This document shows positions 21,372 through 50,574 of a stretch of DNA of 64,000 nucleotides, piece after piece. Made by a program: the position numbers and the translations under genes. The notes below the pieces were generated by a model. The model worked only from the letters and a program-made list of their open reading frames with translations, was not told the origin of the DNA and made no database searches. The DNA comes from Escherichia coli (GTDB lineage: Bacteria > Pseudomonadota > Gammaproteobacteria > Enterobacterales > Enterobacteriaceae): the NCBI RefSeq assembly GCF_024223415.1, contig NZ_CP100500.1, one strand, 5' to 3'. How positions within the stretch are numbered: the stretch's first letter is position 1; each line of letters begins with the position of its first letter.

Positions 21372-21854
21372 TTATCGGGACAAACCGATCGTAATCGCAG
21401 CCATCATCTTTTCAGCGAAAGAGAGAGATTCACGATGACTGATATTCAGAGACATACAGGCTTTGTTGTACGCCACATTTTCCATGCATTCCAGGACAGG
21501 AGAGTCATGCATCTCAAGCTCTGGAAGGCGTGCCAGCAGAGCTTCCGTACTGAGGAGGGCGCTTTTGGTAATCAACTCATTGTAGCGATGGGCATGCTCA
21601 CTCGCCGCCTGCGCACGTTGCCCGAAACGACATATGAAATTACAGGCTCCGAGAACCACCACCACTGCCCCCAGCACCCAGCCGAAATGCCAGCCGGCTA
21701 CGATGAACGCACCCGCCGCAAGGATCAAAATGTTGATGATCGCATCAAGGCGACGATTGAACACCGCCGCGATGCGCTCCAGCCAGTAGCTGTACCAGAG
21801 ACGGAACATGACCTCATCCCGTTCTCTCGATTTTTTACGTTGGTTGTTTTGCAT
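21372..21854 (-). CDS. two-transmembrane-helix protein, reverse-oriented inside the early region (hypothetical)
   Basis: 160 aa; charged N-terminus (MQNNQRKKSRERDE), two adjacent hydrophobic helices (AIINILILAAGAFIVAGWHFGWVLGAVVVVLGACNFI), then a ~90-aa soluble tail. Opposite strand to the flanking early genes. Confidence 0.55.
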   Translation of the reverse strand: MQNNQRKKSRERDEVMFRLWYSYWLERIAAVFNRRLDAIINILILAAGAFIVAGWHFGWVLGAVVVVLGACNFICRFGQRAQAASEHAHRYNELITKSALLSTEALLARLPELEMHDSPVLECMENVAYNKACMSLNISHRESLSFAEKMMAAITIGLSR

Positions 21855-22088
21855 GGTGTTTTATCCCTCATCGTCATCGCTCTGCCCCTAATCAGCGCAG
21901 AGTGCAGGGTAACCTGGCTCGTGGAATTTTTGCAGCCAGACATCTTTACCCCCGGGCGTGTTGAACAAAGTGTCCGCCAGATCCACTGAACGGCGGATTC
22001 ATCAATGCTAACACGCCCTTCTTTTCCGGTTGAAGGCGAAAAAACCGGACCATTACCCCGACACAAAACAGAACAACGGAGAACAACT

Positions 22089-22643
22089 ATGCCCGCACTT
22101 AAACCTATGGGTGTATCAGGTGTACCACCGAAGCATGTCAGAGCCTGGACACAACAGGAAGATGCTCTACTGGTCGGTTTATACCCCTCCCACACCGTAC
22201 CAGAACTGACAAAACACTTTCAGAGAACCGGGCCAGCAATACGAAGCCGCATCCGTCTTTTGCTCTCTCAGGGGGTTATCCACACCAAACAACCCCCCCT
22301 GAATACAAAAGAACTCAACACGCTCATCAGGAATCGCCACACAAAAACCATCCGGGAACTCGCGAATGAACTGGGGCGCTCGACATCCACGGTGGGACTG
22401 AACCTGAGAAAAAGAGGGTACCGGTTCAGGAAATACGGGGAACTCCACCACAGAGCCAGATACAGCGATCACCTGGTGGAGTTGGTAACTGAACTGCGCG
22501 ATGAACAGGGGATGACATTCAGCGAAATCAGAAAGTACATCCGGGACACGACCGGGATATCCCTTAAAAGATGGGTCCTCGCCCGGCTTTACGCACGATA
22601 TACCGCCGCTGACACCGTGCTTTGCGAACTGCTACCGGACTGA
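22089..22643 (+). CDS. hypothetical early protein with repeated helix-rich modules (possible DNA-binding)
   Basis: ORF 22005-22643; ATG at 22089 (MPALKPMGVSG...) follows ggagaacaact. Contains repeated ~45-aa segments. Confidence 0.45.
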   Translation: MPALKPMGVSGVPPKHVRAWTQQEDALLVGLYPSHTVPELTKHFQRTGPAIRSRIRLLLSQGVIHTKQPPLNTKELNTLIRNRHTKTIRELANELGRSTSTVGLNLRKRGYRFRKYGELHHRARYSDHLVELVTELRDEQGMTFSEIRKYIRDTTGISLKRWVLARLYARYTAADTVLCELLPD

Positions 22644-37844: not shown

Positions 37845-38422
37845 ACGCGGAATTAATGCGCCTTATCAGCAACATCATCAGAACCGGCGTGATTTTCGAC
37901 GTGAACCCGCAGACCTGGGAGGTCCGGGTGCGCAGTGGCGGACTGGAGACAGGCTGGCTTCGCTGGAGCACCGCGCGGGCGGGCGCGTTCAGTGTCTGGG
38001 TGCCGCCAGCCACCGGTGAACAGGTGGCGTTCGTCTGTATCGGTGGTAATCCCGAAACCGCGATAATCATCGGCAGCCTCTGGAGCGATGATATCCCGGC
38101 ACCGGGCAGCACACTGAAGGAAATCATCATGACAGCACCGGACGGTGCGGTATTCCGCTACGATGCAGACGCCGGTGCACTGGAGGTTAAGGGGATTAAA
38201 ACAGCCAGCATTCAGGCCGACACGCGCATCACCCTGGACACGTCGGAGGTGGTGTGTACCCGCAAACTTATCACCGCCACCCTGGAGGTGCAGAACGGCG
38301 GCGAGATGCGCGGCAGCATATCCCACAGCGGCGGCAGCCTGACATCCAACGGTATCACCGTTCATACGCACACCCACGGTGGCGTCAGGACGGGCCCGGG
38401 CACCACGGGAGGCCCGCAATGA
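37841..38422 (+). CDS. P2 gpV-like baseplate spike protein
   Basis: 193 aa; start overlaps the S stop. Confidence 0.85.
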   Translation: MNAELMRLISNIIRTGVIFDVNPQTWEVRVRSGGLETGWLRWSTARAGAFSVWVPPATGEQVAFVCIGGNPETAIIIGSLWSDDIPAPGSTLKEIIMTAPDGAVFRYDADAGALEVKGIKTASIQADTRITLDTSEVVCTRKLITATLEVQNGGEMRGSISHSGGSLTSNGITVHTHTHGGVRTGPGTTGGPQ

Positions 38423-43144: not shown

Positions 43145-43633
43145 TCACATCAGATCATTTACGCCGCTTACTGTGGTATTCCAGACCGAACTTAACTTCC
43201 CTTTCATTCCCGAAAGCATATCAGACACCGGTGACGAGGCCATACTCTCCCGCAAATCCTCATCACAGCGTTCCAGACTGACAGTGAACTCAATTTTTTT
43301 GGCCTTACCGTGGCGGTCAAGTTCGCTTCGCGTTGTGCGGACAGCCGTTATCACATACATGCCGTATATCTGCCCCACACCGTCAATCAGCGGCCATGGG
43401 CGACCAGTGTAAGCCTGCGTCGTTAAAAGGCTGAGGGAAACCTCACCGCCGGTAATTTCGGGATAAAGCACACCGGACAACGTGATCTGGTCGTCACCCG
43501 CCCCGATATACTGCCAGCTGGCCGAACGATTGATGCGTTCATTTTTAACGTGGCGCCAGGTTTTATTATGTTGCAGTTGTTGATGAGGCAGCGTACGCAA
43601 CTCAAAAACAAACATGCCGTAAATCATCATCAT
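43145..43633 (-). CDS. P2 gpU-like tail protein
   Basis: 162 aa (MMMIYGMFVFELRTLPHQQLQHNKTWRH...); last gene of the leftward sheath-tube-tape-measure block. Confidence 0.8.
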   Translation of the reverse strand: MMMIYGMFVFELRTLPHQQLQHNKTWRHVKNERINRSASWQYIGAGDDQITLSGVLYPEITGGEVSLSLLTTQAYTGRPWPLIDGVGQIYGMYVITAVRTTRSELDRHGKAKKIEFTVSLERCDEDLRESMASSPVSDMLSGMKGKLSSVWNTTVSGVNDLM

Positions 43634-43644
43634 GCGAGGTACTC

Positions 43645-46600
43645 CTAATCTCTGTCACGGAAACTACCGACTGTCTGGCGGATACGGCGTTCCATTTCCG
43701 CACGGACGGCATCACCCACCATTTTTGCCAGTTCGCGCGGGTTTTGCGTGTGAACATCATGCAGGTGAATATGCAGTTCGCCAGTTAATCCCCATGGTGC
43801 CGCCTCACTCTGGCGCGGTCGGGGCGATGCGGGGGATATGGGCTGGCGCACAGCCTCAACCACCGGACGGGATGTTGCCGCCATCACTGGTGTCATTAGC
43901 GGGGAGAACGTCGGCATGACATCGTGAGTCATAACCGGTTTGATCACCGGCGGAACCACTGGCGTAATATTACCGGACAGTACCGGACGGACGACCGGAG
44001 GAATAACCGGCACATTATTCACGGACACCACCGGCTTCACGACCGGCGACACGTTCGCCGTGGTGGATATCAGCGGCGAAACACTGACAGGCGGTGGCGC
44101 TGGCAGCGGTGGCAACGAAGGCACACTGACCGACGGCACCTGCGGCAGTCTGACAGGTGGCTCACTGACACTACCCGGTAACAGGGAAGCTGCGCGGTTA
44201 AAGCGTTCCTCCTTCCACTCACCACGAACGGCCAGCGCTTCCGGCAGGTTTTTAAAGATAATATCGCCGGGACCAGCGCGTTTTTTCGCCTGTTTCGCCT
44301 CATCCAGCAGACCACCGGTGTTATCGACGATTTTGTTCAGGCGGCGCATAGTGCCGGTATTCTCCCCCGTCAGGGGTGGTTGCCCCCCTTTGGGTTTTTC
44401 GCCGTATTTTTTATCCTCGTCCTTTTTCGGCGGATTAATGACGTTAACATCCGCCAGAAGCATGGCAGCTTTCTCGTTCAGCAACTCCTTCTGTTTTAGT
44501 TCTTCCGCTTTTTTCCGGGCGCGCTCAACCGCTGACGGAATCAGCCCGAGTTTTTCCAGCACCCGGGTTAATGAGTCAATCAGCAGCGTAACCGGACCGG
44601 TCACCAGATTGCTGATAAACTCCCCGACCTTCTGCCCGAACGTCCGCCCGGCTTCCGTGCACTTGTCCAGCTCATCCTTTGTTGTGCTTACCGGCGCGAA
44701 CAAATCCACGAACCACTGCCACACACGCCCGATTGTCTGCCCGACATACTCAAACAATGGTCCCAGTGGTGCCACAGCCTCGCGCAGTGGCGTAAGCCCC
44801 TGCCACAGGCCGGACAAGAACCCGCCCACGACAGCCTTCAGCTGGTCCCAGTGCCGCCAGATAAGCACTGCCGCACCGACCAGTGTCGCCACCACAAGGC
44901 CCACCGGACTTAACAGAAAACCCAGCGCCCCGCCAAGTGCGCCCACCGCACCACTCACCATCCCCCACAGTGCGGGCAGACCTGACAGTCTGAGCGCCAG
45001 TATTCCGATACCGCGCCCCAGTGAAATCAGTGCGCCGCCAGGTGAAGTGAACGCAGCCAGCAGACCACCACGCAGCGCGCCAAGTCCCGCCTGCACACCA
45101 CGAAGCCGCCCCGCAACTACGCCCAGCAGTGCAGCAAACCGTCCGGCACCGGAGGTGATACCGACAAACAGCACGCGCCAGCCACCGATACCGCCCAGCG
45201 GACCACCGAGTACGCCGCGCAGCTGCGTCAGTAACGGCAGCGCACGACCGAGGCCGGATGTGCCGGTCAGCAGGGCAAACCCAAGACGCAGTTTTGCCAG
45301 CGGCCCCATCAACACACCAGTGGCAAGTGACAGCGCCCCCATGGCCGCAACCGCAGCCAGCAGTACACCACCGGCAATCAGCAGTTGTTTTGTCAGTTCA
45401 GGGTGCGCCTGAGCCAGCGCGGTGACTTTCGCAATAACCCGGGTGAACGACTGCGTGACAGAACGCAGCGGCCCGTCAACGAGGTCAGCGATACGGATAC
45501 GCAGTCCTTCCCATGCGCTGTTCAGTGATTTCAGGTCACCGTCCAGGTTATCAACCATAACACGGGCAGTCTGATTAAGTTCCCCGGTGGCCAGTTCAAT
45601 CTCCTGCGTAAGACGGGGAAGATTATTTTCCCCCGCCGCAGTGACAAGATTCATCAGGGAAACATAGGACTCCTGCCCGGCAATAGCCCTGAAAAAGGAG
45701 ACCTGCGCGGCATTACCGTATTTTCGGGTGGCCTGGTACAGCTCATTCAGGATATTTTCCATCCGGCGCATGTTCCCGTAAGCATCCTGCGTCTCCACGC
45801 CAAGCTCTTTCAGTGCCATTGCAGCGGCCTTCGGCGGATCAACCAGACGTGACAGACTGGCACGCAGCGCCGTACCTGCATCACTTCCACGGATCCCCAC
45901 ACTGCCAAGGACACCCGTCATGGCTGCCGCCTGTTCAAGGGACAGGCCAAGTGAAGCTGCAACCGGCCCCGTGTACTTCATGGTTTCACCCAGCGAACGG
46001 AGATCCGTATTGGTTCGTGTGAAGGTGGCGGCCAGCGTGTCACCCACGCGATCCATCTGGTCAGCGGACAGACCAAACTGTGTGAGGATATTCGAACTGA
46101 TATCGGCAGTCTGTCCCAGGTCCATCCCTGCAGCCATTGCCAGATCAAGCACGCCGGGTAGCGCCGCCTGTATGGCCTGTGGTGTGAAGCTGGCCATGGC
46201 AAGGAACGCCTGACCGCTGGCAGCATCACCGGCGGTAAACTGCGTTTCAGAGCCCAGCTTAATGGCCTGTTCGCGCAGCGCCTTAAACTGCGGACTGTTT
46301 TTGTCAATACGGGTCAGCGCCTGGACGCGCGACATCTCCTTACCAAAACTGACCGCCGGTTGCAGGAAACGTCCGGCCGCATAGCCGCCTGCCGCCGCCG
46401 TACCAACCGCCGTAAGTCCGACCGTTTTAAGTTTTCCCGCCGTCTCCTGAGCACGGGAATATTGCTGGCGTGCCTGCGTGACACGTGCCAGCGCCTGCCG
46501 TTCGCGTTCCAGCTGGTCGTTGTATTGCTGTGTTCGCCGTATGGCCTGTTGAATGGTGTTGTCACTGCCGGAAAGCGCAATACCGTGGCGCCGCAGCTCA

Positions 46601-46956
46601 CCACCCAGTTCGCGCATTCGCTGAACTTCACGCGCACGGACCTCATTGAGACGCTCAAGTTTGAGGCTCAAATCGTTCATCAGCTTTTTCTGTTTGTCAG
46701 ACAGCACGGTTCCGGCGCGCTGAATTTGCTGAAGTGCGCTTAACTGGCGTTGCGCCCTGACAATGCCGTTTCCGGCCTTGTTTGCAGCCTCGCGGGCGCG
46801 ATCAAATGAACGGGCGTGGCGTTCCAGGTTTTTGATCGCACCCTGCGTTCTCTGTATGGAGTCGCCAAGCTGGCCCATCATGCGACGGGCGTTTTCGGTG
46901 GGACGGGTCAGCCTGTCAACAGCGCTGAAGGCGACCCGTATATCAAGCGTTTTCAT
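43645..46956 (-). CDS. tail tape measure protein (P2 gpT-like)
   Basis: ORF 43645-46992; ATG at 46956 (MKTLDIRVAF...) overlaps the predicted E' stop, giving ~1103 aa. Long helical N-terminus and Gly/Ala-rich membrane-like core typical of tape measure proteins. Confidence 0.85.
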   Translation of the reverse strand: MKTLDIRVAFSAVDRLTRPTENARRMMGQLGDSIQRTQGAIKNLERHARSFDRAREAANKAGNGIVRAQRQLSALQQIQRAGTVLSDKQKKLMNDLSLKLERLNEVRAREVQRMRELGGELRRHGIALSGSDNTIQQAIRRTQQYNDQLERERQALARVTQARQQYSRAQETAGKLKTVGLTAVGTAAAGGYAAGRFLQPAVSFGKEMSRVQALTRIDKNSPQFKALREQAIKLGSETQFTAGDAASGQAFLAMASFTPQAIQAALPGVLDLAMAAGMDLGQTADISSNILTQFGLSADQMDRVGDTLAATFTRTNTDLRSLGETMKYTGPVAASLGLSLEQAAAMTGVLGSVGIRGSDAGTALRASLSRLVDPPKAAAMALKELGVETQDAYGNMRRMENILNELYQATRKYGNAAQVSFFRAIAGQESYVSLMNLVTAAGENNLPRLTQEIELATGELNQTARVMVDNLDGDLKSLNSAWEGLRIRIADLVDGPLRSVTQSFTRVIAKVTALAQAHPELTKQLLIAGGVLLAAVAAMGALSLATGVLMGPLAKLRLGFALLTGTSGLGRALPLLTQLRGVLGGPLGGIGGWRVLFVGITSGAGRFAALLGVVAGRLRGVQAGLGALRGGLLAAFTSPGGALISLGRGIGILALRLSGLPALWGMVSGAVGALGGALGFLLSPVGLVVATLVGAAVLIWRHWDQLKAVVGGFLSGLWQGLTPLREAVAPLGPLFEYVGQTIGRVWQWFVDLFAPVSTTKDELDKCTEAGRTFGQKVGEFISNLVTGPVTLLIDSLTRVLEKLGLIPSAVERARKKAEELKQKELLNEKAAMLLADVNVINPPKKDEDKKYGEKPKGGQPPLTGENTGTMRRLNKIVDNTGGLLDEAKQAKKRAGPGDIIFKNLPEALAVRGEWKEERFNRAASLLPGSVSEPPVRLPQVPSVSVPSLPPLPAPPPVSVSPLISTTANVSPVVKPVVSVNNVPVIPPVVRPVLSGNITPVVPPVIKPVMTHDVMPTFSPLMTPVMAATSRPVVEAVRQPISPASPRPRQSEAAPWGLTGELHIHLHDVHTQNPRELAKMVGDAVRAEMERRIRQTVGSFRDRD

Positions 46957-47469
46957 GCTCTGCGTTCCCGCTGCGAAGGGCCGCCCGCTCACGCCAGGCG
47001 ACCACCTCGCCGGGATCCATCAGGAAGATTTCAGCGGGAGACCAGTTGAAAATAACGGCGATATCCGCCACAAAGTCTTCAATGTGCTCAAAGGGCACGA
47101 CGGTTATCAGCCTGCCGTCGCCGCCCCGCTCTTCCCGCCAGAGTCCTGACCGGCCAAAAAATTAACCGCCACCCCGCACAGCTGAATAAAATCAGCGGAC
47201 CCCATGCGCTTAAGCAGAACCTCGTCCAGTCGCGGCGAAGTGACGCGCGGGAGTAACTCAAACATCGCGTCCGTTTTCATGTTCAGCACGTCAAGCAGTG
47301 ACAGCCCGCGCAGTGAACCGGCCTGCTGTACAGCAGGCGTGATTTCCACATACGTGATTTTTTTGTTACCGAGCACAAGGGGCGTTTTCAGCGTCACGCC
47401 GCGCTCACTGGTCACGTCCGCCGCATCAGCACCGTCAGTAACAGGGGCAACAACCGGATTTTCTTTCAT
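46952..47469 (-). CDS. tail assembly chaperone E (47107-47469) and its -1 frameshift extension E+E' (to 46952)
   Basis: 120-aa E ORF ends at 47107. A TTTTTTG slippery heptamer (minus strand, 47155-47161) lies near its 3' end; after a -1 shift the frame runs to a TGA at 46952-46954 that overlaps the T start codon. Confidence 0.7.
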
Positions 47470-47519
47470 GCATAAAACCTCAAATCAGGGGGCGACGCCG
47501 CGCGCCGCCGTGGGAAACA

Positions 47520-48038
47520 TTAACCACCAAGACCAATCGCCGAGCGCACGCGGTCCGGGAAGACGTTTTTGCCGTCCTTGCGTTCGATGTGGTTCAGTAA
47601 ATCAATCTCCAGCACCGGACGGTCGTTAATGCTGAGTTTGTAGTAGGTACTCCTGACCGCATAGGTGTGAGACGTGACCTCACCCTGTTTTGCCTCCCCC
47701 GTATCAATTTCCGTCACGCGGCCGCGAAGCTCAATTTCATACAGGTCGCTCTGCTCTTCATCGTTGTAGTACTCACCGACAAAGCGCAGCAGCGTACCGT
47801 CGATCGTGCCGCCGTACTTAAGGAACAGTTCGCGGGTCGGCCCGCCCATGGTGAAACTCGCATCCAGCGCGCCGTCATCCAGACCAAGGTCGATATTCAC
47901 CGCGCCGGCCATACCACCACCGCGATAGGCTTCCGTTTTACGGGTCAGTTTGGGGGGCGTGAAGCCGGTCACCCTGCCAATCTGGTTCACCCCGTCAGTA
48001 AACAGCGTGAACACCCTGAGATTTTTTGGTACGGCCAT
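47520..48038 (-). CDS. P2 gpFII-like tail tube protein
   Basis: 172 aa (MAVPKNLRVFTLFTDGVNQIGRVTGFTPPKLTRKTEAYRGGGM...). Confidence 0.88.
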   Translation of the reverse strand: MAVPKNLRVFTLFTDGVNQIGRVTGFTPPKLTRKTEAYRGGGMAGAVNIDLGLDDGALDASFTMGGPTRELFLKYGGTIDGTLLRFVGEYYNDEEQSDLYEIELRGRVTEIDTGEAKQGEVTSHTYAVRSTYYKLSINDRPVLEIDLLNHIERKDGKNVFPDRVRSAIGLGG

Positions 48039-49321
48039 TAAGCACCTCCAAGCGTCGCAAATGCAGGACCAAAGAATTCATCAGTAAACGTCTGGTAAAG
48101 TTCCATATCCTCAAGCGGCGGAACGGGCGTGTACTTGTAGCGGATACGCACGCGTCCCTGACGAAGTTCCGTGGTGCTGTTATCCACCACGTCATACCAG
48201 CACTCCGCACCAATGAGACGTCCTGACGTAACCAGCGCATCCAGTTTTGCGCGAATTGCGCTTAACACGTCTTTCACATTAGCAGGGGTCAGCGGGGCAT
48301 CAATCGTTTCAAACTGCGCTTCCGCAATGGAATCAGCCAGCACCTGAGCGGTTCGCGTGTACACCTCAAAGATATACGCCTTCGTTTCCGGCGTACGGTT
48401 GCCCCAGAAGCGGAAACCGTTACGGCAAATGATGGTAGTGATTTCCTTGTTGTTGAGATTGTTGGCATCGCTGTCTTCGGACTGAAGGGACCAGAACACC
48501 GGGCTGGAAATACCCAGCACATTTGTTACCGGCACGTTGGACAGCGATTTATGCCAGCCCTGTTCGTGGTCAATACGTGCACGTAAACCGCAGGCGTACG
48601 CCGCAGCCGGGAAGACCTCATTAGCGCCGGATTTCGGGTTATAGGCGATGAAGTCAGGCCAGAGCAGCATAAGTTCGCGCTCGTTAAATCTGGCGCGGTA
48701 GCTGATTGCATCAGCGGGCTTCTTGCAGTTGTGACAGCCCGCGTAGACAAATGCGCGAAGTTTTTCTGCAATTACACACAGGGATTTTGTGACAGCTTCA
48801 GTATCCAGTCCGGGAGCTGCGATGATGCGCGGACGGTAACCGATGGCATCATCCTGTTCAGCTATCAGAAGTGCATACATACCGGTATAATTACCGTCGC
48901 CATCCGTGCCACCAATGACATACTGGTCCTGCGTTTTGTGTGGGTATACAGGATGTGCATCTTCAGACTCATCAATACCAAAAAATGCCCTGTCTTCAGG
49001 ATCCAGATGACCGAATGATGTAACTCCTGTATCCGGGGCGCCCTGAGAACTGGTATCAGGAACGCGCACCACAATCACCTTCGTGCTCACCTGGTCGGCG
49101 ACAGCCTTAAGCGATTTGTAAAGCGTCCCCTTTGTGCCGGCCTTACCCAGCACATCACTGACGCGGGTCAGCAGTGTGGGTTTGTTCAGCGGGAACAGAG
49201 TTTCATCCGCGTCATCTGCCGTAGCCACAATACCAATAACACTGGAATCCACATCATTAATGGCGGTGGCAAGGCCGGTACTTTCCCTTACGCGCGCACC
49301 ATGAAAGCGTGTTTCACTCAT
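48038..49321 (-). CDS. P2 gpFI-like tail sheath protein
   Basis: ORF 48038-49468; start placed at MSETRFHGARV... (49321). Blocks ...FPLNKPTLLT...GTKGTLYKSL..., ...LRARIDHEQGWHKSLSNV..., ...RNGFRFWGNRT..., ...YTRTAQV..., ...YTPVPPLE... parallel P2 FI. Confidence 0.88.
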   Translation of the reverse strand: MSETRFHGARVRESTGLATAINDVDSSVIGIVATADDADETLFPLNKPTLLTRVSDVLGKAGTKGTLYKSLKAVADQVSTKVIVVRVPDTSSQGAPDTGVTSFGHLDPEDRAFFGIDESEDAHPVYPHKTQDQYVIGGTDGDGNYTGMYALLIAEQDDAIGYRPRIIAAPGLDTEAVTKSLCVIAEKLRAFVYAGCHNCKKPADAISYRARFNERELMLLWPDFIAYNPKSGANEVFPAAAYACGLRARIDHEQGWHKSLSNVPVTNVLGISSPVFWSLQSEDSDANNLNNKEITTIICRNGFRFWGNRTPETKAYIFEVYTRTAQVLADSIAEAQFETIDAPLTPANVKDVLSAIRAKLDALVTSGRLIGAECWYDVVDNSTTELRQGRVRIRYKYTPVPPLEDMELYQTFTDEFFGPAFATLGGA

Positions 49322-49397
49322 ATGTTTCACCCTTGTCTGGCTGGTTGATTTTGCGTAATCATTACCCACACACGCGGTAATCTCACCCCTTTGATGT

Positions 49398-49415
49398 TGT
49401 CTCCTGACAGCGACA
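49398..49415. promoter_or_regulatory. candidate Ogr-dependent late promoter dyad (TGT-N12-ACA) in the divergent FI / D intergenic region
   Basis: TGTctcctgacagcgACA, nested in a longer palindrome (tgttgtc...gacaaca); lies ~75-80 bp from both the FI and D start codons. Confidence 0.5.
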
Positions 49416-49482
49416 ACAAAACAGCCATTCAACGCCGCTGCGGTGCATGAAACCATTACAGAACGCACCAGGAGAGAACACC

Positions 49483-50574
49483 ATGAAAGAGCTGTCAGTT
49501 ACCGTTCCGTCACCGGATATCGACATCACCATCAACAACAACACACTGGCAAACCTCACAGAGCGACTCATGACGCTGACCCTGACGGATAACCGGGCCT
49601 TTGAGGCAGACCGCGTCACCCTCACCCTTGACGATACGGACGGGCAGTTACAGTTGCCACCACGTGGCGCACGCCTGAGAGTGATGATTGGCTGGCGAGG
49701 AGAATCACTGGTTAACAAGGGCACCTACGTCGTTGATGAGGTTGCGTGGGAAGGACCTCCAGATAAACTGATCATCACCGCCAGCAGCGCAGATTTTCGG
49801 GAAGAGTTCAACGTGAGGCGGGAGGTATCCTGGCACGACGTGACCGTAAAACAGGTTGTGTCAGCCATCGCTCACCGCTACGGCCTGAAGACACAGATAA
49901 GCGAAATCCTCATGGATATCGAAATTGACCACGCTGACCAGACCGAAGAGAGCGATATATCCTTCCTGACCCGCATGGCTGAAATGCTGGGTGCGATTGC
50001 CACCGTAAAAAACGGCAGCCTGTTATTCATTCTGCCGGGTGGCGGAACCGGGCCGGACGGAAGAGCCCTGCCTTCGTTCGCCATTACCCGCAGCAGCGGC
50101 GACAGTCACCGCTTTCGCATTGCTGACCGTGATGCGTATACGGGGGTCCGGGCGCACTGGCTCGATCTGAAGTTCGGGCAAAAGAAAAAAGTGAACGTGA
50201 AGCGACGCAGGGAAGCCGGGAAACAGAAACAGGAGAAGAGCAGCAGCCGGGAGGGTGATTACATGGAAGGCGCGGAAGGGAACGTCTACGTTCTGCGCAG
50301 GACTTACCAGAATGAAGAAACCGCACGACGTGCAGCTGCGGCAAAGTGGCAGGAGTTACAGCGGGGAGCAGCGGCATTCTCCATCACTCTGGCACGGGGT
50401 CGTGCCGACCTGTACCCCGAAATGCACGGCAGGGTAACAGGTTTTAAAAGCGAGGTGGACAATCAGGACTGGATTATTGCCAGGGTGGAGCACATCATAG
50501 ATGAAAGCGGCTTCACCACACAACTGGAGCTGGAAGCGAAAATCCCCGAATGGATAGCAGATTCAGGCGGATAA
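49483..50574 (+). CDS. P2 gpD-like tail protein
   Basis: ORF 49447-50574; ATG at 49483 follows aggaga. Blocks LTLTDNRAFEAD, SWHDVTV, HADQTEESDISFLTRMAEMLGAIATVKNGSLLF, ITRSSGDSHRF, GRADLYPE parallel P2 D. Confidence 0.88.
   Translation: MKELSVTVPSPDIDITINNNTLANLTERLMTLTLTDNRAFEADRVTLTLDDTDGQLQLPPRGARLRVMIGWRGESLVNKGTYVVDEVAWEGPPDKLIITASSADFREEFNVRREVSWHDVTVKQVVSAIAHRYGLKTQISEILMDIEIDHADQTEESDISFLTRMAEMLGAIATVKNGSLLFILPGGGTGPDGRALPSFAITRSSGDSHRFRIADRDAYTGVRAHWLDLKFGQKKKVNVKRRREAGKQKQEKSSSREGDYMEGAEGNVYVLRRTYQNEETARRAAAAKWQELQRGAAAFSITLARGRADLYPEMHGRVTGFKSEVDNQDWIIARVEHIIDESGFTTQLELEAKIPEWIADSGG

What the first reader, a model, noticed from the sequence alone, without database searches (positions are those of the whole stretch)
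46952..47165. Conserved -1 programmed frameshift site for E/E' with the stop overlapping the tape-measure start
The minus strand has T-TTT-TTG near the end of E (complement of 47155-47161). Shifting -1 there extends translation ~50 codons to a TGA at 46952-46954 that overlaps the ATG of T (ATGA). This is the same arrangement as P2 E+E' and the lambda G/GT tail chaperone, and supports the gene calls and orientation of the inverted block.
Basis: partly seen in the sequence, partly recalled or inferred. Interest (0 to 1): 0.3.

Follow-up and report, generated by a model that had tools for sequence, protein, structure and literature searches.

The report
P2-type tail chaperone frameshift site
This is the ordinary, well-known -1 ribosomal frameshift that P2-family phages use to make a short and a long tail-assembly chaperone from one gene, here in an E. 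coli prophage.

Summary
The core of the finding holds. On the minus strand, gene E (47469..47107, 120 aa) carries T TTT TTG at 47161..47155 in the correct phase. The -1 frame is closed by TAA (47164..47162) directly before the heptamer and is then open for 70 codons. The predicted 175-aa fusion aligns end to end with P2 gpE+E' across the junction (36% identity, E=1e-27). The extension matches Pfam Phage_P2_GpE (4e-12) and phrog_1756 (1e-32).

Two details are wrong. The E' stop is TGA at 46945..46943, not 46952-46954. It does not form an ATGA with the tape-measure start: the TGA of that ATGA is in the +1 frame. E' and T (ATG 46956..46954) overlap by 14 nt (ATGAAAACGCTTGA).

Each of 67 distinct complete E genes from related phage loci has an in-phase X XXY YYZ heptamer at this site and none elsewhere in E. 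Three variants occur: TTTTTTG, AAATTTT and CCCTTTC. That favours tandem tRNA slippage over RNA-polymerase slippage. No conserved stimulatory RNA structure was found, as reported for P2.

The window is an E. coli chromosomal prophage of the P88-like branch of Peduoviridae. RefSeq annotates E and a 51-aa "GpE family" ORF separately, without the join. This is a textbook feature of low interest; its value is a corrected annotation.

The parts
47520..48038 (-). Tail tube gene (P2 FII homologue), directly upstream of E
   Evidence: PF04985 Phage_tube, E=1.8e-44. PGAP name: 'phage major tail tube protein'.
47107..47469 (-). Gene E, the zero-frame product (120 aa): short form of the tail assembly chaperone. 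Ends in TGA TAA.
   Evidence: Translation. phrog_103 at 4.7e-31, the same PHROG as P2 gpE. BLASTP to P2 gpE+E'. No hit to PF10109.
47155..47161 (-). Slippery heptamer T TTT TTG, in phase with E (AAT TTT TTG = N F L)
   Evidence: Same heptamer, phase and aligned position in P2, P88 and 500465-2. It is the only in-phase XXXYYYZ in the whole of E.
47162..47164 (-). TAA in the -1 frame immediately 5' of the heptamer. It closes the -1 frame, so E' can only be entered at or after the heptamer.
   Evidence: -1 frame reads ...GGG*FFGRSG.... No ATG, GTG or TTG occurs in the -1 frame between 47161 and the GTG at 47098 (read from the sequence).
46943..47155 (-). E' extension in the -1 frame: 70 sense codons (GRSGLWREERGGDGRLITVVPFEHIEDFVADIAVIFNWSPAEIFLMDPGEVVAWRERAALRSGNAEHENA) plus TGA at 46945..46943
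   Evidence: PF06528 Phage_P2_GpE at 4e-12, 45.8 bits against a 23-bit cutoff. phrog_1756 at 9.9e-33, covering residues 2-67 of 70.
46943..47469 (-). E+E' fusion CDS, complement(join(46943..47155,47155..47469)), 175 aa
   Evidence: Aligns with P2 gpE+E' (142 aa) over residues 19-169, through the junction, at 36% identity and E=1e-27.
46943..46956 (-). 14-nt overlap ATGAAAACGCTTGA between the T start codon (46956..46954) and the E' stop (46945..46943)
   Evidence: PGAP places the T start at the same ATG. The same 14-nt overlap (ATGAAGACTCTTGA) is found in P88-like loci; the P2 overlap is 8 nt.
43645..46956 (-). Tape measure gene T (1103 aa), same frame as E
   Evidence: PF10145 PhageMin_Tail, E=1.4e-51. 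Uninterrupted ORF.
43145..43633 (-). gpU homologue, downstream of T
   Evidence: PF06995 Phage_P2_GpU, E=2.8e-41.

Best explanation
This is a -1 programmed ribosomal frameshift site in the tail-assembly-chaperone gene of a P2-family (P88-like) E. coli prophage.

Most ribosomes translate E (47469..47107) to its stop and make a 120-aa protein. A minority slip back one base, with tRNA-Phe on UUU in the P site and tRNA-Leu on UUG in the A site, so that U UUU UUG (47161..47155) is re-read as UUU UUU. They then continue in the -1 frame for 70 codons to TGA 46945..46943 and make a 175-aa E+E' protein that shares the first ~105 residues of E. The E' stop lies 14 nt inside the tape-measure gene T, an arrangement that could allow translational coupling (inferred).

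By analogy with P2 E/E+E' and lambda G/GT, both forms would bind the tape measure protein through the shared E part. The rarer E' domain would recruit the tube subunit and start tail polymerisation, and neither form would end up in the virion.

Shown here: sequence anatomy, homology in both frames, and conservation of the site. Inferred: that the shift occurs, its low efficiency, and the chaperone roles.
For: - Heptamer in phase, TAA closing the -1 frame just 5' of it, and 70 open codons after it.
- The fusion aligns with P2 gpE+E' through the junction, with 'FL' on 'FL', E=1e-27.
- The -1 extension matches PF06528 above the curated cutoff and phrog_1756 from residue 2 onward. So the part of E' that overlaps E, upstream of any start codon, is conserved as protein.
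- In the 15-codon overlap, the -1 frame is better conserved than the zero frame: 11/15 against 8/15 versus P88-like loci, and 8/15 against 4/15 versus L065.
- All 67 distinct complete E genes (82 loci) have an in-phase XXXYYYZ heptamer at this site. None has one at any of 6863 other codon positions.
- The heptamer varies (TTTTTTG, AAATTTT, CCCTTTC) while the X XXY YYZ pattern is kept.
- E lies between the tube and tape-measure genes.
- P2 uses TTTTTTG to make the 91-aa E and the 142-aa E+E' (GenBank annotation; PMC3091744 citing Christie 2002 and Xu 2004).
- Role and ratio of lambda G/GT: PMC5009743.
Against: - There is no experimental evidence for this prophage, whether protein, ribosome profiling or induction.
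- U_UU.U_UU.G is not among the most efficient heptamers listed for E. coli (PMC4066793).
- No stimulatory structure or conserved SD-like element was found, so efficiency may be low. That would fit a chaperone ratio like that of lambda.
- E does not reach any score against Pfam PF10109.
- PGAP and the closest phage records annotate E' as a separate 51-aa gene.
Confidence: 0.9

Rival explanations
1. E' is an independent small gene, translated from GTG 47098 as a 51-aa protein as RefSeq/PGAP annotates it, with no frameshift.
For: PGAP calls WP_001115715.1 'GpE family phage tail protein' at exactly this ORF. P88, 500465-2 and Chuche carry the same separate call. A GTG is present at this position in the window and in P88.
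Against: - No Shine-Dalgarno sequence sits at a usable distance; the nearest AGG ends 12 nt upstream.
- The 19 -1-frame codons upstream of the GTG (GRSGLWREERGGDGRLITV) are conserved as protein and are covered by phrog_1756. They contain no start codon and are preceded by TAA.
- The CCCTTTC group has GCG rather than a start codon at the equivalent position.
- In P2 the homologous region is expressed as a fusion.
Confidence: 0.04
2. The same E+E' fusion is made mainly by RNA-polymerase slippage on the T6 run, which inserts one extra U into the mRNA, rather than by ribosomal slippage.
For: A run of six T is present. A +1-nt transcript would encode the same fusion. Nothing run here can separate the two routes for this locus.
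Against: - Close relatives keep the two-ORF arrangement with TTTTATG (a T4 run within A AAT TTT) or C CCT TTC (C3 and T3 runs). These are too short for polymerase slippage but fit the tandem-tRNA X XXY YYZ rule.
- From general knowledge, six bases is short for productive transcriptional slippage in E. coli.
- The P2 literature treats the event as translational.
Confidence: 0.04
3. The site is an inherited relic in a silent or defective prophage. It is never used, so the resemblance is historical only.
For: No expression data exist. In one near-identical genome PGAP flags the adjacent tape-measure gene as a pseudogene.
Against: - All tail genes in the block are intact ORFs with strong family matches.
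- The 'pseudogene' has no in-frame stop.
- The region is at least 99% identical in 25 complete E. coli genomes.
- The -1 frame shows protein-level conservation.
Confidence: 0.02

Closest known systems
Bacteriophage P2 E / E+E' -1 programmed frameshift (FETUD tail operon; Christie et al. 2002, cited in PMC3091744)
   Same: - Same heptamer (TTTTTTG) in the same phase, at the aligned ...(G/N)FL position of a homologous protein.
- E' is homologous (PF06528).
- The gene lies between tube gene FII and tape-measure gene T.
- The E' stop lies inside the start of T.
- No downstream RNA structure.
   Different: - E is 120 aa against 91 aa, with an N-terminal extension of about 18-25 residues, depending on the alignment.
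- The site lies 52 nt rather than 25 nt before the E stop, so the dual-coding overlap is 15-16 codons rather than 6.
- There is a 10-residue insertion after the junction.
- The E'/T overlap is 14 nt rather than 8 nt.
- E fails Pfam PF10109.
- The whole FI-FII-E-T-U block is inverted relative to D/ogr and the baseplate genes.
P88-like phages (Xuanwuvirus P88, Gemsvirus 500465-2, Citrobacter phage phiSM): the nearest sequenced phages
   Same: - About 77% nucleotide and 73% protein identity in E+E'.
- Same gene order and block orientation.
- Same 14-nt E'/T overlap.
- TTTTTTG at the same position.
   Different: P88-like genes read GTA AAT TTT TTG, which gives two overlapping heptamers (A AAT TTT and T TTT TTG). 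The window reads GTT AAT TTT TTG. That removes the first heptamer and creates a -1-frame TAA. None of these records annotates the join.
Lambda G / GT tail assembly chaperone frameshift (Levin 1993; Xu, Hendrix, Duda 2004, 2013, 2014)
   Same: - Same logic and synteny: two overlapping ORFs between the major tail (tube) gene and the tape-measure gene.
[quoted passage not shown]
   Different: - No sequence similarity to lambda G/GT was tested or seen here.
- Lambda is known (from general knowledge) to use G GGA AAG.
- Lambda has a non-contractile tail.
- The binding roles of the E and E' domains are inferred by analogy only.
dnaX / IS3-type bacterial -1 frameshift signals
   Same: An X XXY YYZ heptamer with tandem tRNA slippage.
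   Different: Those signals use an upstream SD-like element and/or a downstream hairpin or pseudoknot. None is conserved here: fold z-score -0.56, alignment consensus energy -4.2 kcal/mol with no covariation support, and no Rfam match.

Membership tests
P2-type gpE/gpE+E' frameshifted tail assembly chaperone | The gene pair lies between the tail tube gene and the tape-measure gene, on the same strand | tested here: met
   FII 47520..48038(-), E 47107..47469(-), T 43645..46956(-), each with a Pfam hit. PGAP annotation of the identical locus agrees.
P2-type gpE/gpE+E' frameshifted tail assembly chaperone | A second ORF in the -1 frame overlaps the 3' end of the first and has no stop after the shift site | tested here: met
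   The -1 frame is open for 70 codons from 47155 to TGA 46945..46943.
P2-type gpE/gpE+E' frameshifted tail assembly chaperone | A slippery heptamer X XXY YYZ (TTTTTTG in P2) in zero-frame phase within the overlap | tested here: met
   T TTT TTG at 47161..47155, the same as P2 at the aligned position. All 67 distinct complete E genes from related loci have one at this site and none elsewhere in E.
P2-type gpE/gpE+E' frameshifted tail assembly chaperone | The upstream ORF is homologous to gpE | tested here: met
   phrog_103 at 4.7e-31; P2 gpE hits the same PHROG at 6.4e-45. BLASTP to P2 gives 1e-27. Caveat: Pfam PF10109 (Phage_TAC_7), which P2 gpE hits at 1.5e-12, gives no hit even at E<=10.
P2-type gpE/gpE+E' frameshifted tail assembly chaperone | The -1-frame extension is homologous to E' (Pfam Phage_P2_GpE) | tested here: met
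   PF06528 at 4e-12, 45.8 bits against a 23-bit cutoff, residues 134-169 of the fusion. phrog_1756 at 9.9e-33.
P2-type gpE/gpE+E' frameshifted tail assembly chaperone | Both E and E+E' are actually produced from one start codon, and both are needed for tail assembly | not testable with these tools
   Needs protein detection and genetics. Reported for P2 only (cited).
Lambda G/GT-type conserved tail frameshift (Xu-Hendrix-Duda class) | Two overlapping ORFs immediately upstream of the tape-measure gene, linked by a slippery sequence, with the longer product made at low frequency | tested here: met
   The anatomy is met. The frequency cannot be tested.
Lambda G/GT-type conserved tail frameshift (Xu-Hendrix-Duda class) | Sequence homology to lambda gpG/gpGT | not tested
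   No lambda comparison was run. Pfam and PHROG hits are to P2-type families only.
Stimulator-dependent bacterial -1 PRF (dnaX / IS3 type) | A conserved downstream hairpin or pseudoknot 5-9 nt from the heptamer, and/or an upstream SD-like element | tested here: not met
   - The 95 nt downstream fold no better than shuffles (z=-0.56).
- A 7-sequence alignment gives -4.19 kcal/mol with a positive covariation term.
- No Rfam family matches at E<=1.
- The upstream GGGGTGGCGG is not conserved in P88-like loci.

The most novel reading that the evidence does not exclude
The shift site itself may turn over within this chaperone family. Relatives use A AAT TTT, C CCT TTC (one codon upstream) or T TTT TTG. 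The first two belong to the H_HH.U_UU.Y class, which is rated highly efficient in E. coli; U_UU.U_UU.G is not in that class. The window's lineage lost the A AAT TTT option through a change that is silent in E (GTA to GTT) and that also plants a -1-frame TAA. If these variants set different E:E+E' ratios, the family would be a natural series for asking how tightly the chaperone ratio must be tuned in contractile-tail phages. The window would be a low-efficiency, single-site extreme. An A-site-only U_UU.U slip, giving ...NFFGR instead of ...NFLGR, is also not excluded.
Probability: 0.25. Interest if true: 0.3.

Novelty: already known. Interest (0 to 1): 0.1.

Why it matters
Its practical value is in annotation. 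RefSeq/PGAP and the closest phage records list E as 'hypothetical' or 'tail protein' and E' as a separate 51-aa gene. The correct model is one start codon with two products, E of 120 aa and E+E' of 175 aa: complement(join(46943..47155,47155..47469)).

The site also confirms the minus-strand orientation of the FI-FII-E-T-U block in this P88-like prophage. Biologically it adds nothing new to the long-established conserved tail-chaperone frameshift. The only mildly interesting by-product is that three different heptamers occupy the same site in close relatives.

Tried and rejected
- **Heptamer counting.** TTTTTTG occurs 29 times in the window against 16.6 expected, so it is not informative alone.
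- **Open -1 frame as evidence.** 7% of codon positions in long ORFs have at least 70 open -1 codons. An in-phase GGGCCCG/CCCGGGC at 38392(+) followed by 123 open codons is just the next gene (baseplate W after V). The case at 21836(-) is likewise two adjacent ORFs. This measure was rejected as sufficient evidence.
- **Downstream stimulatory structure.** The MFE is no better than shuffles and there is no conserved or covarying structure in 7 relatives. A stable hairpin over the E stop (GGCGACGG...CCGTCG) starts about 34 nt after the heptamer (its outer stem about 27 nt) and is not conserved. Rejected.
- **Rfam.** No family matched at E<=1.
- **Pfam on E alone.** No family matched, not even PF10109.
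- **Solved structures.** Nothing relevant was found.
- **Antisense and +1-frame ORFs over the region** (46763..47149+, 46816..47049+, 47088..47261-). None has a family match, so they were treated as spurious.
- **Promoter or terminator between tube, E and T.** No promoter-like site was found and terminator-like sites are at background level. This is consistent with one operon.
- **Christie et al. 2002 (PMC135442).** The paper could not be read because it is not held. It is cited only through PMC3091744.
- **Single-sequence search of viral contigs.** It gave only 2 loci. The 3-sequence alignment was needed to reach 80.

Full report
**Observation.** Reading the minus strand and translating all three frames shows an ORF from ATG 47469 to TGA 47109..47107, followed at once by TAA. 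It encodes a 120-aa protein.

In the -1 frame the triplet just before the heptamer is TAA (47164..47162). From the heptamer onward the -1 frame is open for 70 sense codons and ends at TGA 46945..46943. The ATGA at 46956..46953 does exist, but its TGA is in the +1 frame relative to E. The tape-measure gene T starts at ATG 46956..46954, the same start PGAP uses. E' and T therefore overlap by 14 nt (ATGAAAACGCTTGA), with the E' stop embedded in T codons 4-5. The extension is 70 codons from the shift, or 54 beyond the E stop.

**Is it more than chance?** Not on anatomy alone. TTTTTTG occurs 29 times in the window against 16.6 expected. A -1 frame open for at least 70 codons is found at 7% of codon positions in long ORFs here. 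The same scan turns up an in-phase heptamer near the end of baseplate gene V (38392+) whose 'extension' is simply the next gene. The decisive evidence is homology and comparison with relatives.

**Context.** The window is E. coli chromosome carrying a P2-family prophage next to serS.
- The 621-nt region is at least 99% identical in 25 complete E. coli genomes.
- The nearest phages are P88-like Peduoviridae (Xuanwuvirus P88, Gemsvirus 500465-2, Chuche, Citrobacter phiSM), at about 77% nucleotide identity.
- On the minus strand the order is sheath, tube (PF04985, 1.8e-44), E, E', tape measure (PF10145, 1.4e-51), gpU (PF06995, 2.8e-41). The gpD homologue is on the opposite strand.
- Relative to P2, the FI-FII-E-T-U block is inverted between G and D. 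P88 and 500465-2 share this arrangement, so it is a lineage trait.
- PGAP annotates E as 'hypothetical protein' and a separate 51-aa 'GpE family phage tail protein' starting at GTG 47098, with no join. The P88, 500465-2 and Chuche records do the same, and phiSM omits E' altogether.

**Homology of both frames.**
- The predicted fusion (175 aa) aligns with P2 gpE+E' (142 aa) from residue 19 to 169, straight through the junction, at 36% identity and E=1e-27. The 'FL' encoded by TTT TTG aligns with P2's 'FL'.
- The extension matches Pfam PF06528 Phage_P2_GpE (4e-12, 45.8 bits against a 23-bit cutoff).
- It also matches phrog_1756 (9.9e-33) from residue 2 to 67 of 70. The part of E' that overlaps E, which lies upstream of any possible start codon, is therefore conserved as protein.
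- E matches phrog_103 (4.7e-31), the PHROG of P2 gpE. It does not match Pfam PF10109, which P2 gpE does hit.

**Comparative test of the site.** An alignment-seeded scan of viral contigs returned 80 loci. With P2, P88, 500465-2, L005 and the window itself, that makes 85 loci and 70 distinct E-E' regions.
- All 67 distinct complete E genes (82 loci) have at least one in-phase X XXY YYZ heptamer at the homologous site. None has one at any of the other 6863 codon positions.
- Three variants occur: T TTT TTG (window, L065, P2); A AAT TTT, with or without an overlapping T TTT TTG (P88-like; a large subgroup reads TTTTATG); and C CCT TTC, one codon upstream (a more distant group).
- The sequence changes while the slippery pattern is kept. 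That is what selection for tandem tRNA slippage predicts. It argues against RNA-polymerase slippage, for which T4 or T3 runs are too short.
- In the 15-codon dual-coding overlap, the -1 frame is better conserved than the zero frame: 11/15 against 8/15 versus P88-like loci, and 8/15 against 4/15 versus L065.
- The three exceptions are two genes cut short or oddly started and one metagenome contig (L008). In L008 a 1-nt indel fuses E and E' into one ORF.

**Stimulators.**
- The 95 nt downstream fold no better than shuffled sequence (z=-0.56).
- A 7-sequence alignment gives a consensus of only -4.19 kcal/mol, with no covariation support.
- Rfam has no match.
- No SD-like element is conserved upstream.
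- This agrees with the literature, which finds no structure for P2 or for the Burkholderia P2-like phages (PMC3091744).

**Mechanism.** The best-supported account is a low-frequency -1 ribosomal frameshift on U UUU UUG. It would yield E (120 aa) and E+E' (175 aa) from one start codon. The E' stop lies inside the start of T.

By analogy with lambda G/GT, whose product ratio is about 30:1, the shared part would bind the tape measure and the extension would bind the tube subunit (PMC5009743). P2 E and E+E' are both annotated as essential tail proteins. On that basis both forms here are presumed to be tail assembly chaperones. These roles are inferred, not shown.

According to Sharma et al. 2014 (PMC4066793), H_HH.U_UU.Y heptamers are among the most efficient in E. 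coli, whereas U_UU.U_UU.G is not listed in that class. The window reads GTT AAT where P88 reads GTA AAT. It therefore lacks the A AAT TTT option and retains only the P2-type site. An A-site-only slip on U_UUU is possible and would give ...NFFGR instead of ...NFLGR at the junction.

**Rivals.**
- Independent initiation of E' at GTG 47098, the PGAP model. This is unlikely: there is no usable SD, the peptide upstream of the GTG is conserved, and the CCCTTTC group has no start codon there.
- Transcriptional slippage on T6. The short-run variants in relatives disfavour it.
- A relic in a dead prophage. All tail ORFs are intact, and the tape-measure gene flagged 'pseudogene' in NZ_CP033635 has no in-frame stop.

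**Verdict.** The finding is real and correctly interpreted, but it is textbook. It is the P2 E/E+E' frameshift in a P88-like E. coli prophage, with corrected coordinates: stop at 46945..46943, a 14-nt overlap with T, and no ATGA. Novelty: already known. Interest is low, and the useful outcome is an annotation correction.

Noticed in passing
L008:1431-1943 (IMGVR_UViG_3300031110_000632): In this one metagenome contig, E and E' read as a single ORF of about 155 aa. A 1-nt indel about 10 codons upstream of the CCCTTTC site puts the N-terminal part of E into the E' frame. It is either a sequencing error or a natural 'fusion-only' variant.
   Followed up: partly
window 43645-46956 (-): The tape-measure ORF is intact and long: 1103 aa, against 935 aa in P88 and 815 aa in P2. 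It has a Pro/Val-rich C-terminal stretch (…PPVRLPQVPSVSVPSLPPLPAPPPVSV…PVVKPVV…). The 99.5%-identical copy in NZ_CP033635 is split and flagged as a pseudogene by PGAP, although it has no in-frame stop.
   Followed up: partly
window 43145-50574: The FI-FII-E-E'-T-U block is on the strand opposite to gpD/ogr and to the baseplate and fibre genes, so it is inverted relative to the P2 gene order. P88 and 500465-2 have the same arrangement, so this is a lineage feature and not a rearrangement of this genome.
   Followed up: partly
window 38392-38401 (+): In-phase GGGCCCG/CCCGGGC heptamers lie 8-9 codons before the stop of baseplate gene V, with the -1 frame open for about 123 codons. From the annotation mapped to window coordinates, that open frame is the next gene (W/gp25 family), whose start overlaps V's stop. 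It probably serves as a negative control rather than a second frameshift.
   Followed up: partly
window 47358-47364 (-): A run of seven A lies inside E (AAC AAA AAA ATC). It is not an in-phase XXXYYYZ heptamer, and the -1 frame stops after about 25 codons. There is no sign that it matters.
   Followed up: partly
L009, L038, L039 and about 20 other loci; L066-L085: Close relatives replace TTTTTTG with TTTTATG, keeping only A AAT TTT. A more distant group uses C CCT TTC one codon upstream. So the shift site turns over within one chaperone family.
   Followed up: yes
window 21372-22195 (-): An in-phase AAAAAAT at about 21836 lies in a dubious 156-aa ORF and leads into a 160-aa membrane-like ORF that has its own ATG at 21854. 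It looks like two adjacent or overlapping ORFs, not recoding.
   Followed up: partly
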